Under the pieces are notes generated by a model that searched no databases, had not been told where the DNA came from, and saw only the letters and a program-made list of their open reading frames with translations. Shown here piece after piece: positions 52,513 to 58,148 of a stretch of DNA of 64,000 bases. Source of the stretch: the human T2T-CHM13v2.0 reference genome, Homo sapiens; assembly GCF_009914755.1 (NCBI RefSeq), contig NC_060926.1. One strand, written 5' to 3'. The translations under genes were made by a program, and so were the position numbers. Numbering within the stretch: position 1 is the first letter of the stretch; each line of letters starts with the position of its first letter.

Positions 52513-53201
52513 TGATGGAGCCACTTTTAAATGTCCTTTACACATTCAGAAGTTAATGTTGAGTTTGTTTGTTTTAATGTGTGTTTACAGTATGCTGTCA
52601 AACGTTCTGAAAAAAATGATCAGAGCATGGGACTTTCTTTGTCATTTCTGAGGTTATTTGCATGATTTATTCTGGAATCTACAGGAAAGAAGACTGTATG
52701 GTAATGTGAAAGCAGGCTTCTAGTCTATGAAGGATGAAAATAAAGACCTGGACCCATCTTTTCCTTCCATCCTCTAGAAAGAGACAAGAGGAAAGGTATT
52801 TTACCTTAGGGCAGGAGAAATTTTGGATTAGAGGATATGGAAAATATAACCAAAATAACCAAAAACCAAATAACCAATAATCAAAATATAACCAAAAGAA
52901 AGTTCTGTCAATGTGTAACTGGTAAAGTGTTCTGAAACAGCCTTCATCATTGATCTTTGCAACAGATAGGGTGCCCTCTAACTGAGTTATATAACAAGGT
53001 GGAACTACACTAAGGATTCTTGCTTATGTGAATTTACTTTTCAAGACTCTGCTTAAAAAGCTGATGGAAATTTAGGTTGCTTCACATTCTTTGCTATACC
53101 CAACAATTAGAAAATGAACAGTTTTATTAGATCTCTGCATTGCTTGATCTGTTACACAATCACTTCTATAAATATATCTCTACTTTAAAATCTTAATTTT
53201 A

Positions 53202-53345
53202 GAAGTTCCTCAGCTACGACTACCAGGTACCTCGGCTTCCTCCCTCCTCCGAGAGACCGCCGAGGTGCGGGCTGTGAGAGAGGGAGCGTGGAGCCTCCGA
53301 GGCCGAGGACTCGGTCCCAGTTTGGACAGATAGAAGATGCGAGCG
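53202..53345 (+). other. Non-SVA CpG-rich 5'-transduced leader
   Basis: Lies inside the TSD and upstream of the hexamer; 12 CpGs in 144 bp; absent from the duplicated empty site at 57901-58132. Confidence 0.88.
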
Positions 53346-56300
53346 CTCTCCCTCTCCCTCTCCCTCTCCCTCTCCCTCTCCCTCTCCGTCTCCCTCTCCC
53401 TCTCCCCACGGTCTCCCTCTCATGTGGAGCCAAAGCTGGACTGTACTGCTGCCATCTTGGCTCACTGCAACCTCCCTGCCTGATTCTCCTGCCTCAGCCT
53501 GCCGAGTGCCTGCCATTGCAGGCACGCGCCGCCACGCCTGACTGGTTTTGGTGGAGACGGGGTTTCGCTGTGTTGGCCGGGCCGGTCTCCAGCCCCTAAC
53601 CGCGAGTGATCCGCCAGCCTTGGCCTCCCGAGGTGCCGGGATTGCAGAGGGAGTCTCGTTCACTCAGTGCTCAATGGTGCCCAGGCTGGAGTGCAGTGGC
53701 GTGGTCTCGGCTCACTACAACCTACACCTCCCAGCCGCCTGCCTTGGCCTCCCAGAGTGCTGAGATTGCAGCCTCTGCCCGGCCGCCACCCCGTCTGGGA
53801 AGTGAGGAGTGTCTCTGCCTGGCCGCCCATCGTCTGGGATGTGAGGAGCCCCTCTGCCTGGCTGCCCAGTCTGGAAAGTGAGGAGCGTCTCCGCCCGGCC
53901 GCCATCCCATCTAGGAAGTGAGGAGCGCCTCTTCCCAGCCGCCATCACATCTAGGAAGTGAGGAGCGTCTCTGCCCGGCCGCCCATCGTCTGAGATGTGG
54001 GGAGCGCCTCTGCCCCGCCGCCCCATCTGGGATGTGAGGAGGCCTCTGCCCGGCCGAGACCCCGTCTGGGAGGTGAGGAGGGTCTCTGCCCAGCCGCCCC
54101 GTCTGAGAAGTGAGGAGACCCTCTGCCTGGCAACCACCCCGTCTGAAAAGTGAGGAGCCCCTCCGCCCGGCAGCCGCCCCGTCTGGGAGGTGAGGAGCCT
54201 CTCCGCCCGGCAGCCACCCCATCTGGGAGGTGAGGAGCATCTCCGCCCGGCAGCCACCCCGTCCGGGAGGGAGGTGGGGGGGGTCAGCCCCCCGCCCGGC
54301 CAGCTGCCCCATCCGGGAGGGAGGTGGGGGGTCAGCCCCCCCGCCCGGCCAGCCGTGCCATCCGGGAGGGAGGTGGGGGGGTCAGCCCCCCGCCTGGCCA
54401 GCCGTGCCGTCCGGGAGGGAGGTGGGGGGGTCAGCCCCCTGCCCGGCCAGCCGCCCCGTCCGGGAGGTGAGGGGCGCCTCTGCCCGCCCGCCCCTACTGG
54501 GAAGTGAGGAGCCCCTCAGCCCGGCCAGCCACCCCGTCCAGGAGGGAGATGGGGGGTCAGCCCCCCCACCCGGCCAGCCGCCCCGTCCGGGAGGGAGGTG
54601 GGGGGGTCAGCCCCCCGCCTGGCCAGCCGCCCCGTCCGGGATGGAGGTGGGGGGGGGTCAGCCCTCCGCCCGGCCAGCCGCCCCGTCTGGGAGTTGAGGG
54701 GCGCCTCTGCCCGGCCGCCCCTACTGGGAAGTGAGGAGCCCCTCTGCCCGGCCAGCCGCCCCGTCCGGGAGGGAGGTGGGGGGGTCAGCCCCCCGCCCGG
54801 CCAGCCGCCCCGTCTGGGAGGGAGGTGGGGGGGTCAGCCCCCCGCCCGGCCAGCCGCCCCGTCCGGGAGGGAGGTGGGGGGGGTCAGCCCCCCTGCCCGG
54901 CCAGCCGCCCCGTCCGGGAGGTGAGGGGCGCCTCTGCCCGGCCGCCCCTACTGGGAAGTGAGGAGCCCCTCTGCCCGGCCAGCCGCCCCGTCCGGGAGGG
55001 AGGTGGGGGGGTCAGCCCCCCGCCCGGCCAGCCGCCCCGTCCGGGAAGGAGGTGGGGGGGGTCAGCCCCCCCGCCCGGCCAGCCGCCCCGTCCGGGAGGT
55101 GAGGGGCGCCTCTGCCCGGCCGCCCCTACTGGGAAGTGAGGAGCCCCTCTGCCCGGCCAGCCGCCCCGTCCGGGAGGGAGGTGGGGGGGTCAGCCCCCCG
55201 CCCGGCCAGCCGCCCCGTCCGGGAGGGAGGTGGGGGGGGTCAGCCCCCCGCCCGGCCAGCCGCCCCGTCTGGGAGGGAGGTGGGGGGGTCAGCCCCCCGC
55301 CCGGCCAGCCGCCCCGTCCGGGAGGGAGGTGGGGGGGGTCAGCCCCCCTGCCCGGCCAGCCGCCCCGTCCGGGAGGTGAGGGGCGCCTCTGCCCGGCCGC
55401 CCCTACTGGGAAGTGAGGAGCCCCTCTGCCCGGCCAGCCGCCCCGTCCGGGAGGGAGGTGGGGGGGTCAGCCCCCCGCCCGGCCAGCCGCCCCGTCCGGG
55501 AAGGAGGTGGGGGGGGTCAGCCCCCCCGCCCGGCCAGCCGCCCCGTCCGGGAGGTGAGGGGTGCCTCTGCCCGGCCGCCCCTACTGGGAAGTGAGGAGCC
55601 CCTCTGCCCGGCCAGCCGCCCCGTCCAGGAGGGAGGTGGGGGGGTCAGCCCCCCGCCCGGCCAGCCGCCCCGTCCGGGAAGGAGGTGGGGGGGATCAGCC
55701 CCCCGCCCGGCCAGCCGCCCCGTCCGGGAGGTGAGGGGCGCCTCTGCCCGGCCGCCCCTACTGGGAAGTGAGGAGCCCCTCTGCCCGGCCAGCCGCCCCG
55801 TCCGGGAGGGAGGTGGGGGGGGTCAGCCCCCTGCCCGGCCGGCCGCCCCGTCCGGGAGGTGAGGGGCGCCTCTGCCCGGCCGCCCCTACTGGGAAGTGAG
55901 GAGCCCCTCTGCCCGGCCACCACCCCGTCTGGGAGGTGTGCCCAACAGCTCATTGAGAACGGGCCAGGATGACAATGGCGGCTTTGTGGAATAGAAAGGC
56001 GGGAAAGGTGGGCAAAAGATTGAGAAATCGGATGGTTGCCGTGTCTGTGTAGAAGGAAGTAGACATGGGAGACTTTTCATTTTGTTCTGCACTAGGAAAA
56101 ATTCTTCTGCCTTGGGATCCTGTTGATCTGTGACCTTGCCCCCAACCCTGTGCTCTCTGAAACATGTGCTGTGTCCACTCAGCGTTGAATGGATTAAGGG
56201 CGGTGCAAGATGTGCTTTGTTAAACAGATGCTTGAAGGCAGCATGCTCGTTAAGAGTCATCACCAATCCCTGATCTCAAGTAATCAGGGACACAAACACT

Positions 56301-56484
56301 GCGGAAGGCCGCAGGGTCCTCTGCCTAGGAAAACCAGAGACCTTTGTTCACTTGTTTATCTGCTGACCTTCCCTCCACTATTGTCCCATGACCCTGCCAA
56401 ATCCCCCTCTGTGAGAAACACCCAAGAATTATCAATAAAAAAATAAATTTAAAAAAATAAAAAAATAAAAAAATAAAATAAAAT
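53202..56484 (+). mobile_element. Full-length SVA retrotransposon (SVA_F-like) with 5' transduction, antisense to PDE11A
   Basis: TSD aaaatcttaatttta (53187-53201 and 56485-56499) at a TTT|AAAA L1-endonuclease site. Layout: 144-bp leader, (CCCTCT)n 53346-~53405, Alu-like ~53405-53780, VNTR ~53780-55935, SINE-R ~55935-56440, AATAAA at 56434, A-rich tail. The F-like call rests on remembered diagnostics (gactggttttggtggag, gggccaggatgacaatggcggctttg, aattatcaataaa). Confidence 0.96.
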
Positions 56485-57296
56485 AAAATCTTAATTTTAA
56501 TTTTACATTAAAAAGAAAAGCAACATGTATTCATTACAAATTTGAAAAACACAGAAAAGCATGAGGAAGAAAGTTAAAGCCACCCACCCTTCAGCGATAG
56601 CCCTCCATCCAGAGATAGCCTTTCTCAATATTTTCTTTTGTTTCCTTCATATATGTATATAGATCATGATAGATGGTAGGCAGGTAGGTAGGTAATTGTA
56701 TGTGTGCACGACCTTTTTTTTTTAACAGAGTCAAAATAATACTATGTGCATGTGTGTATATGTATACACTACGTTTTCATTTAATATAACATGAAAATCC
56801 TTTTGTGTTATTTTAAATTCTTTGAAAACATGATTTAACATCTGAATTGGGATATATAGTTTATATGCTTATTCTCTTACTATTTTCTAGAAATTTTCCA
56901 ATTTTTTGATTTCATAAAACACTGTGATCCTTGAAACTTAGTATCTGTTTGCATCCATGATTATTGCCTTCAAGCCAAACCTTAGAAGTAGAATTTTTGG
57001 ATCAGAGATGAAGAAAACTTTAAGAATCTTAATATACCTGTCGAATTCTTTTCTAGAAAAATAACACTTTTTCTAATTTATACTCCTATGTACAATATAT
57101 AAAAGCTCCATCCCAGCTGGTCTTCTCAAACTCTAGATAGAAAAATGATAGGTAGAAAATAGTATCTGTTTATTTTTCATTAACTTTCACTTCTGAAAGT
57201 TGAACATTTTTCTTATATATGTTAATCAACTAAATTTCTTTGCCAATTTTCTGCTTATTTTTCTACTGATTTAAATTGTTTAAAAAATTAATAACA

Positions 57297-57900: not shown

Positions 57901-58148
57901 TGATCTGTTACACAATCACTTCTATAAATACATCTCTAGTTTAAAATCTTTATTTTAATTTTACATTAAAAAGAAAAGCAACATGTACTCATTACAAATT
58001 TGAGAAACACAGAAAAGCATGAAGAAGAAAGTTAAAGTCACCCACACTTACTGAAGTGTGGTGATAGCCCTCCATCCAGAGATAGCCTTTCTCAATATTT
58101 TCTTTTGTTTCCTTCATATACGTATATAGATCCATCCCAGCTGGTCTT
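57901..58148 (+). repeat. Local duplicate of the pre-SVA target region
   Basis: 57901-58132 matches 53145-53201 joined to 56500-56665; 58131-58148 matches 57107-57124. Confidence 0.92.

What the first reader, a model, noticed from the sequence alone, without database searches (positions are those of the whole stretch)
53202..53345. SVA carrying a captured CpG-rich 5' leader from another locus
Seen: between the 5' TSD (53187-53201) and the CCCTCT hexamer are 144 bp with 12 CpGs (gaagttcctcagctacgactaccaggtacc...gatagaagatgcgagcg) in an otherwise AT-rich, CpG-poor intron. The leader is missing from the duplicated empty site at 57901-58132, so it arrived with the element. Known: SVAs can 5'-transduce upstream or spliced host sequence. 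SVA_F1 carries MAST2 exon 1 but lacks the hexamer, whereas hexamer and Alu-like domain are intact here, so this is not SVA_F1. Inference: the leader is the 5' end of a CpG-island transcript that read into a source SVA. A splice junction may lie at ...gaggccgag|gactcgg..., and the final agaagatgcgagcg may be the source element's own TSD. It could belong to an already described group (my unverified recollection is of ZNF487, RHOT1 and TPTE groups) and could act as a portable antisense promoter fragment.
Basis: partly seen in the sequence, partly recalled or inferred. Interest (0 to 1): 0.8.

Follow-up and report, generated by a model that had tools for sequence, protein, structure and literature searches.

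The report
SVA with two-locus 5' leader
A full-length SVA retrotransposon in a PDE11A intron carries a 144-base leader stitched from a chromosome 10 CpG-island first exon and a chromosome 3 flank, which is a well-known kind of SVA 5' transduction.

Summary
Positions 53202-53345 are 144 bp with 12 CpGs, lying between an exact 15-nt target-site duplication and the SVA hexamer. They are absent from a paralogous empty site at 57901-58132.

The leader has four parts:
- One non-templated G.
- 105 nt of a chr10 CpG-island first exon, ending exactly at its GT donor. By position this is ZNF487; the name is recalled, not read from an annotation.
- A 6-nt GACTCG of unknown origin.
- 32 nt identical, bar 2 bases, to unique DNA at chr3:163,446,058-089, where this assembly (T2T-CHM13) has no SVA.

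The assembly holds three siblings with the exon-plus-chr3 leader (chr7, chr11, chr13) and one SVA with only the chr3 piece (chr13). Each has its own target-site duplication and A-tail. The chr7 copy is spliced from the chr3-derived GT donor into the Alu-like region.

Best reading: two successive 5' transductions. An SVA on chr3 picked up its flank. A daughter then landed downstream of the ZNF487 first exon and was spliced to it. Both source elements are missing from CHM13.

Spliced and concatenated SVA transductions are in print, and ZNF487 is already listed among SVA-trapped promoters. This is a clean example, not a new kind. Promoter activity was not tested.

The parts
53187..53201 (+). 5' target-site duplication AAAATCTTAATTTTA
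   Evidence: Exact second copy at 56485-56499, and only these two in the window. The paralogous empty site holds a single copy.
53202..53202 (+). Non-templated G at the 5' end of the insert, likely copied from the RNA cap
   Evidence: It is not part of the target: the empty site and the 3' flank continue with A. It is not in chr10, which has T there. A mismatched 5' G is also seen in the chr7, chr13:33.76M and chr11 copies.
53203..53307 (+). 105 nt of the first exon of a chr10 CpG-island gene (chr10:44,318,094-44,318,198; ZNF487 by position)
   Evidence: 98% identity over query 2-107; 2 differences in 106; the chr10 match ends at GAG|GTGAGG; the surrounding island has GC 0.69 and o/e 0.75.
53308..53313 (+). 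GACTCG, a 6-nt filler of unknown origin between the exon and the chr3 piece
   Evidence: It is shared by all 4 exon-bearing copies. AG followed by these 6 bases is absent from chr10:44,300,001-44,400,000.
53314..53345 (+). 32 nt derived from chr3:163,446,058-163,446,089, the 5' flank of an earlier source SVA
   Evidence: 30 of 32 identical to chr3. BLAST of chr3 against the chr13 and chr11 copies gives 97% over 33 nt; chr3 carries no SVA and continues with unrelated unique DNA.
53339..53497 (+). Stretch equivalent to the intron removed in the chr7 sibling. The donor reads GT in chr3 and in the chr11 and both chr13 copies (the chr7 copy has spliced this stretch out), and GC in this copy. The acceptor is ...ctcag|CCTGCC in the Alu-like region.
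   Evidence: the chr7 copy joins ...GAAGAT directly to CCTGCCGAG.
53346..53421 (+). SVA hexamer array
   Evidence: TRF: period 6, 12.8 copies.
53422..53770 (+). SVA Alu-like region
   Evidence: Read. 312 nt align with the four related copies at 97.4-99.0%.
53771..55934 (+). SVA VNTR, about 2.2 kb
   Evidence: TRF arrays of period 37-49 and multiples.
55935..56433 (+). SVA SINE-R with polyadenylation signal
   Evidence: The last 620 nt (55814-56433, which takes in about 120 nt of the VNTR's 3' end) align with three siblings at 96.9-98.6%.
56434..56484 (+). A-rich tail
56485..56499 (+). 3' target-site duplication
57901..58132 (+). Older local duplicate of the insertion site, without leader or SVA (empty site)

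Best explanation
This is a canonical, full-length SVA of about 3.3 kb. It was inserted by the LINE-1 machinery, antisense, into a PDE11A intron. Its RNA carried a concatenated 5' transduction built in two rounds.

Round 1 (inferred). A source SVA sat at chr3:163,446,089/090. It was transcribed from a start at least 32 nt upstream, so its daughters carried that flank. The chr13:33.76M copy is such a daughter, or a shortened one.

Round 2 (inferred). One such daughter landed, in sense orientation, downstream of the first exon of the chr10 CpG-island gene (ZNF487 by position). Transcripts from that promoter were spliced from the exon-1 GT donor to an acceptor just upstream of the inserted element. 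The 6-nt GACTCG would be the host bases between that acceptor and the element.

These chimeric RNAs were retrotransposed at least four times: to chr2 (this window), chr7, chr11 and chr13:20.64M. In the chr7 event the RNA was spliced again, from the GT inside the chr3-derived piece to an AG in the Alu-like region. That removed the hexamer.

Shown: the three-part origin of the leader, the exact exon boundary, the independent insertions, and the absence of both source elements from CHM13.

Inferred: the order of events, the position of the second source, and the reading of the 5' G as cap-derived.
For: -: a search of the window's own genome with the 144-nt leader gave 5 of 5 scored candidates. 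They were the window itself, chr7 (query 2-137, 99%), chr10 (2-107, 98%), chr13 (51-144, 99%) and chr11 (75-144, 97%).
- the chr10 hit is non-SVA CpG-island DNA, and the match stops at GAG|GTGAGG.
- the 31-mer after the junction occurs, with up to 3 mismatches, only in the 4 SVA copies. It therefore has no contiguous genomic source of its own.
- the last 25 nt (searched with Y at the T/C base; the T form matched) also occur exactly at chr3:163,446,065-089 and at chr13:33,758,032.
- the chr3 site is unique DNA with no SVA. The chr13:33.76M site is an SVA whose leader is only that piece.
- the homology to chr3 runs 32-33 nt and ends where the hexamer starts.
- all five elements have different target-site duplications and A-tails.
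- over 932 aligned nt of Alu-like and SINE-R sequence every variable column is private to one copy. That is a star pattern, as expected from one master.
- the chr7 copy joins ...GAAGAT to CCTGCCGAG, with GT...AG at the ends of the missing stretch.
- the junction motif occurs exactly in only 4 SVAs genome-wide. It also gave two 2-mismatch hits: chr1, fetched and found to be ordinary DNA with no SVA, and chr9, not examined.
- In print: spliced exonic 5' transductions, very short transductions that are the source's target-site duplication, and 27 'concatenated' transductions from several loci (PMC12593883, passages). ZNF487 is listed among promoters 'trapped by SVA repeats' (PMC5007689, passage in section 10).
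Against: - Neither proposed source element is in this assembly. chr3 is empty. Within chr10:44,300,001-44,400,000 no SVA carries the chr3 piece.
- The 6-nt GACTCG has no identified origin. AG followed by these 6 bases is absent from the 100 kb of chr10 examined. The four downstream AG+GACTC sites are about what chance gives: roughly 5 are expected for a 7-mer in 82 kb.
- The 5' ends inside the exon could be truncations rather than transcription starts. The chr13:20.64M copy shows no extra G.
- The gene name ZNF487 was not read from an annotation here. It rests on recalled coordinates and gene order, a C2H2 zinc-finger exon 45 kb downstream, and an HNRNPF-like 418-aa open frame 52 kb upstream on the minus strand.
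Confidence: 0.75

Rival explanations
1. Template switching rather than a second insertion. During reverse transcription of an SVA RNA that carried the chr3 flank, the LINE-1 reverse transcriptase reached the 5' end and jumped to a ZNF487 exon-1 RNA that ended at the donor site. GACTCG would be non-templated filler. The chimera then served as master.
For: The 6-nt filler has no source in the 100 kb of chr10 searched. No master is present in the chr10 gene in CHM13. A template switch has been proposed in print for an SVA plus processed-pseudogene chimera (PMC12593883, passage).
Against: The chr10 part ends exactly at an exon-intron boundary with a strong GT donor. That is what cis-splicing predicts, and it would require a short-lived free first exon as the second template. 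Four copies have four different 5' ends across more than 100 nt of the exon. This fits repeated transcription from a promoter-linked master more simply.
Confidence: 0.12
2. The reader's simpler model of a single-step transduction. A CpG-island transcript was spliced from exon 1 to a downstream exon or intron of the same gene and read into one source SVA. The whole leader would then come from one locus.
For: The exon boundary is exact. This mechanism, exon 1-2 splicing and then read-through into an intronic SVA, is described for LINC02916 and UQCRC1 (PMC12593883, passage).
Against: The 32 nt next to the hexamer map to chr3, not chr10. The longest exact match of the post-junction part in 100 kb of chr10 is 12 nt and lies inside an Alu. 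A separate SVA carries the chr3 piece without the exon.
Confidence: 0.03
3. Not a transduction at all. The leader would be local intron sequence, part of an ordinary SVA consensus, or a rearrangement after insertion.
For: None found.
Against: The leader lies inside the target-site duplication and is missing from the empty paralog. It occurs in only 4 SVAs of a genome that holds thousands (the number is recalled). The siblings have different target sites.
Confidence: 0.01

Closest known systems
SVA_F1 (MAST2 exon 1 fused to SVA_F) and chimpanzee pt_SVA_D6 (STK40 exon 1)
   Same: A GC-rich first exon of a host gene is joined at its splice donor to an SVA and then spreads with it (PMC6139936, abstract and passages). 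The chr7 sibling has the same architecture, with the hexamer and the start of the Alu-like region spliced out.
   Different: In the window copy the hexamer and the whole Alu-like region are kept, and the exon is joined upstream of the element. The chr7 copy keeps about 300 nt of Alu-like sequence. [quoted passage not shown]
Concatenated SVA transductions and spliced exonic 5' transductions (MRPS18A, LINC02916, UQCRC1) in polymorphic human SVAs
   Same: Transduced sequence from more than one locus on one SVA shows that daughters became sources. Short transductions correspond to the source's flank or target-site duplication. Exon 1 is joined by splicing (PMC12593883, passages).
   Different: Those are non-reference insertions. 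None of the passages I read names ZNF487, PDE11A or chr3. Its supplementary tables were not consulted.
ZNF487 'promoter trapped by SVA' (Pugacheva et al. 2016, PMC5007689)
   Same: [quoted passage not shown] BORIS/CTCFL binding sites are said to lie inside the trapped sequences (passage in section 10).
   Different: Only the gene name is in the main text. The loci are in Table S3 and Figure S5, which I could not open. I cannot say whether the PDE11A copy, the chr3-derived piece or the siblings are described there.

Membership tests
SVA retrotransposon with a 5' transduction | The extra sequence lies inside the target-site duplication, directly 5' of the SVA | tested here: met
   The 15-nt duplication brackets leader plus SVA plus A-tail.
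SVA retrotransposon with a 5' transduction | The extra sequence is absent from the empty site | tested here: met
   The paralogous empty site 57901-58132 is contiguous across the insertion point. Orthologous ape sites could not be examined.
SVA retrotransposon with a 5' transduction | The extra sequence maps to unique DNA elsewhere in the genome | tested here: met
   chr10:44,318,094-198 (105 nt) and chr3:163,446,058-089 (32 nt). 6 nt remain unmapped.
SVA retrotransposon with a 5' transduction | A source SVA sits next to the origin sequence | tested here: not met
   There is no SVA at the chr3 site. No SVA with this leader lies in chr10:44.30-44.40 Mb. The sources may be polymorphic or lost. 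Only CHM13 was searched.
SVA retrotransposon with a 5' transduction | Group members share the leader but have different insertion sites | tested here: met
   4 further SVAs share it, each with its own duplication and tail.
SVA_F1 (MAST2) | Hexamer and most of the Alu-like region are replaced by MAST2 exon 1 | tested here: not met
   Hexamer of 12.8 copies and a full Alu-like region are present. The leader maps to chr10 and chr3, whereas MAST2 is on chr1 (recalled). No direct comparison with MAST2 sequence was made.
ZNF487 promoter-trapped SVA group (PMC5007689) | The leader derives from the ZNF487 promoter or first exon | tested here: inconclusive
   The leader is a CpG-island first exon, with a plus-strand C2H2 zinc-finger exon 45 kb downstream. 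An HNRNPF-like open frame lies 52 kb upstream. This fits my recalled map of ZNF487, but no annotation of chr10 was available.
ZNF487 promoter-trapped SVA group (PMC5007689) | This locus is among those the paper lists | not testable with these tools

The most novel reading that the evidence does not exclude
The transduced exon would work as a portable promoter, making this a small human counterpart of SVA_F1. Four copies begin at four different points spread over about 105 nt of the exon, and three of them carry a mismatched 5' G that looks cap-derived. Some copies could therefore have been transcribed from starts inside an already transduced leader rather than from the native chr10 promoter. 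Both traceable masters (chr3 and chr10) are missing from CHM13, so the lineage may persist only as polymorphic, possibly still active, non-reference elements.
Probability: 0.2. Interest if true: 0.45.

Novelty: already known. Interest (0 to 1): 0.22.

Why it matters
The element shows how SVAs pick up host first exons by splicing and stack transductions from successive source loci. This is the route that produced the successful SVA_F1 lineage. The leader works as a bar code: it ties five insertions in CHM13 to two source elements that this assembly no longer holds. Those sources can be looked for in pangenome assemblies. For PDE11A, the practical point is a 3.3-kb CpG-rich antisense insert in an intron, with a CpG-island fragment at its 5' end. 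Nothing here shows any effect on the gene.

Tried and rejected
- Contiguous genomic source for the post-junction 31-mer: none within 3 mismatches outside the 4 SVA copies. A 22-mer search gave only those 4 copies plus one 2-mismatch site on chr8, which I did not examine and take for chance.
- Origin of GACTCG. AG followed by these 6 bases is absent from chr10:44.30-44.40 Mb. AG+GACTC occurs at 5 sites, 4 of them downstream of exon 1, which is about the chance number. One site, 44,334,966, is preceded by tttt/aaaaaa, which looks like a LINE-1 endonuclease site. This is only a lead.
- The 12-nt chr10 match to the post-junction part lies in an Alu and is chance.
- chr1:205,269,844 (2 mismatches to the junction motif) is ordinary DNA with no SVA. 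The other 2-mismatch hit of that search, on chr9, was not examined.
- The three 3-mismatch hits (chr3:154.08M, chr4, chr8) were not examined and are taken as chance.
- Subfamily assignment (D, E or F) was not attempted, because no reference consensus was on hand.
- Dating is rough. There are 5-8 private differences per copy in 932 nt for the chr2, chr7 and chr13 copies. With recalled rates this suggests a few million years. No ape genome could be searched.
- Literature. Damert 2009 (PMC2775593) and Hancks 2009 (PMC2775590) are not held, so I cannot say whether their inventories list this group. Full-text searches: 'SVA + transduction + ZNF487' gave 0 papers. 'ZNF487 + SVA' gave 2. 'PDE11A + SVA + retrotransposon' gave 0. 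Among the 20 papers listed, none paired ZNF487 with 'retrotransposon', and the five that held ZNF487 (with 'transduction') are, by their titles, not about SVAs.
- The store of earlier findings was not open.

Full report
**What is there**

The stretch 53202-53345 is 144 bp, GC 0.63, with 12 CpGs (observed/expected 0.84). The flanking intron has GC 0.34 and o/e 0.10-0.15. No 144-bp stretch of the window outside the leader and the SVA reaches 12 CpGs.

The stretch lies between an exact 15-nt target-site duplication (53187-53201 and 56485-56499, the only two copies in the window) and the SVA hexamer array (53346-53421, 12.8 copies). The SVA continues with:
- an Alu-like region;
- a VNTR of about 2.2 kb;
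- the SINE-R;
- an A-rich tail ending at 56484.

An older local duplicate of the insertion site at 57901-58132 is contiguous across the insertion point. It has one copy of the duplicated 15-mer and neither leader nor SVA.

**Where the leader comes from**

A search of the window's own genome (T2T-CHM13) with the 144 nt returned five places, and all five candidates were scored:
- the window itself;
- chr7:78,759,473 (query 2-137);
- chr10:44,318,094 (query 2-107);
- chr13:20,641,525 (query 51-144);
- chr11:17,149,490, minus strand (query 75-144).

The chr10 place is not an SVA. It lies in a CpG island (GC 0.69, o/e 0.75 over 851 bp), and the match stops at ...GCCGAG|GTGAGG, a splice donor.

The name ZNF487 for this chr10 gene is my recollection of its map position. 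Three results fit it:
- a plus-strand C2H2 zinc-finger exon with broken frames lies 45 kb downstream;
- an HNRNPF-like 418-aa open frame with a zf-RNPHF domain lies 52 kb upstream on the minus strand;
- one paper lists ZNF487 among promoters 'trapped by SVA repeats' (PMC5007689, passage in section 10).

**The part after the junction**

The next 31 nt occur, with up to 3 mismatches, only in the four SVA copies. They are therefore not a contiguous exon anywhere in CHM13.

The last 25 nt (searched with Y at the T/C base; the T form matched) also occur exactly at two further places:
- chr3:163,446,065-089 is unique DNA without any SVA. The sequence continues unrelated exactly where the hexamer starts in the elements.
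- chr13:33,758,032 is another SVA whose leader is only this piece.

The homology to chr3 runs 32-33 nt. One of the two differences from chr3, G>A, is shared by all five elements.

The leader therefore reads as follows:

| Window position | Content |
|---|---|
| 53202 | G, not templated by target or chr10 |
| 53203-53307 | chr10 exon 1, 105 nt; 2 differences from CHM13 chr10, one of which recurs in all three siblings that cover that site |
| 53308-53313 | GACTCG, origin unknown |
| 53314-53345 | chr3 flank, 32 nt |

**The family**

All five SVAs have their own target-site duplications and A-tails:

| Copy | Target-site duplication |
|---|---|
| window (chr2) | AAAATCTTAATTTTA |
| chr7 | AAAAAATGGTC |
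| chr13:20.64M | AAACAACC |
| chr13:33.76M | AAGAAAGATTTGGTTT |
| chr11 | AAGAAAAAGTTTATCCT |

- **5' ends.** The four exon-bearing copies start at four points spread over about 105 nt of the exon; chr7 starts 32 nt further upstream than the window copy. Window, chr7 and chr11, and also chr13:33.76M, carry a mismatched G as their first base. That is the usual mark of a copied cap.
- **Divergence.** Over 932 aligned nt of Alu-like and SINE-R sequence, every variable column among the copies is private to one copy. This is a star pattern consistent with one master. Pairwise differences are 1.0-3.1%.
- **chr7 splice.** The chr7 copy joins ...GAAGAT directly to CCTGCCGAG in the Alu-like region. The missing stretch begins GT (as in chr3 and in the chr11 and two chr13 copies) and ends AG, so it was spliced out of the RNA. 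In the window copy that GT reads GC, a private change.

**Mechanism**

The simplest account is two successive 5' transductions:
1. A source SVA at the chr3 site was transcribed from at least 32 nt upstream.
2. A daughter carrying that flank landed, in sense orientation, downstream of the chr10 exon.
3. Transcripts from the CpG-island promoter were spliced from exon 1 to an acceptor a few bases upstream of the daughter.
4. These chimeric RNAs were copied by LINE-1 at least four times, once after a further splice.

I put 0.75 on this.

Both sources are missing from CHM13, and the 6-nt filler has no identified origin. AG plus those 6 bases is absent from 100 kb of chr10, and AG+GACTC sites occur at chance frequency.

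The main rival is a template switch of the reverse transcriptase onto an exon-1 RNA (0.12). It explains the filler. It does not explain the exact exon boundary or the four different 5' ends as well.

A single-locus origin is contradicted by the chr3 mapping.

**Comparison with what is known**

Each ingredient is in print:
- Host first exons spliced to SVAs: SVA_F1/MAST2 and chimpanzee pt_SVA_D6/STK40 (PMC6139936, abstract and passages).
- Spliced exonic 5' transductions, short transductions that equal the source's flank or target-site duplication, and 27 'concatenated' transductions from several loci, taken there as proof that daughters become sources (PMC12593883, passages).
- ZNF487 itself, listed as an SVA-trapped promoter (PMC5007689).

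The window copy is not SVA_F1, because it keeps the hexamer and the Alu-like region.

I could not read Damert 2009 or Hancks 2009 or the supplementary tables of PMC5007689. I therefore cannot say whether this locus, its siblings or the chr3 piece are listed. My searches found no main text that names PDE11A together with an SVA.

**Verdict**

This is a real, cleanly resolved SVA with a concatenated 5' transduction. It is a textbook-quality example of a known process, not a new one. Promoter activity of the leader remains untested.

Noticed in passing
L024 (chr11 sibling, Alu-like region) and window 56000-56190 (SINE-R): Private changes are skewed to A>G. In the chr11 copy 5 of 6 private changes in 312 nt of Alu-like sequence are A>G, in two tight clusters. 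In the window copy 4 of 6 private changes in the SINE-R are A>G. This looks like A-to-I editing of the RNA before reverse transcription, but the counts are small.
   Followed up: partly
chr10:44,301,599-44,304,100 (+), about 44,326,900-44,328,200 (-), about 44,345,700-44,347,400 (-); loci L010, L012, L014: Three SVA-like elements lie within about 46 kb around the chr10 first exon in CHM13. One lies upstream of it in the same orientation and two lie downstream in antisense orientation. The evidence is hexamer hits and VNTR-like open frames. None carries the chr3-derived leader.
   Followed up: partly
window 53145-53201 plus 56500-56665, against 57901-58132; also about 57109 and 58133: There is an old local duplication of about 232 bp (90-95% identity) of the SVA insertion site, 1.4 kb downstream. 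A 9-bp indel lies within it. Right after the duplicate a short motif recurs that is also seen near 57109, which suggests a larger rearranged repeat.
   Followed up: partly
L021 (chr13:33,758,032 SVA): This copy has only the chr3 piece. It carries an extra TTCTCG between the chr3 flank and the hexamer. It ends early with an A-tail inside the SINE-R. It is the most divergent in the SINE-R, at 94.5% over 293 nt.
   Followed up: no
L016 2300-4117 (chr10:44,362,300-44,364,117, +): The zinc-finger exon downstream of the captured first exon is split over five overlapping open frames (the reading frames were not checked against one another). C2H2 fingers are found in three of them. The coding region looks disrupted.
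   Followed up: partly
L020 2999-3085 (chr3:163,445,999-163,446,085): The chr3 flank that supplied the 32 nt is weakly similar (76-78% over 70-85 nt) to single sites on chr5 and chr8. It may be part of an old low-copy repeat.
   Followed up: no
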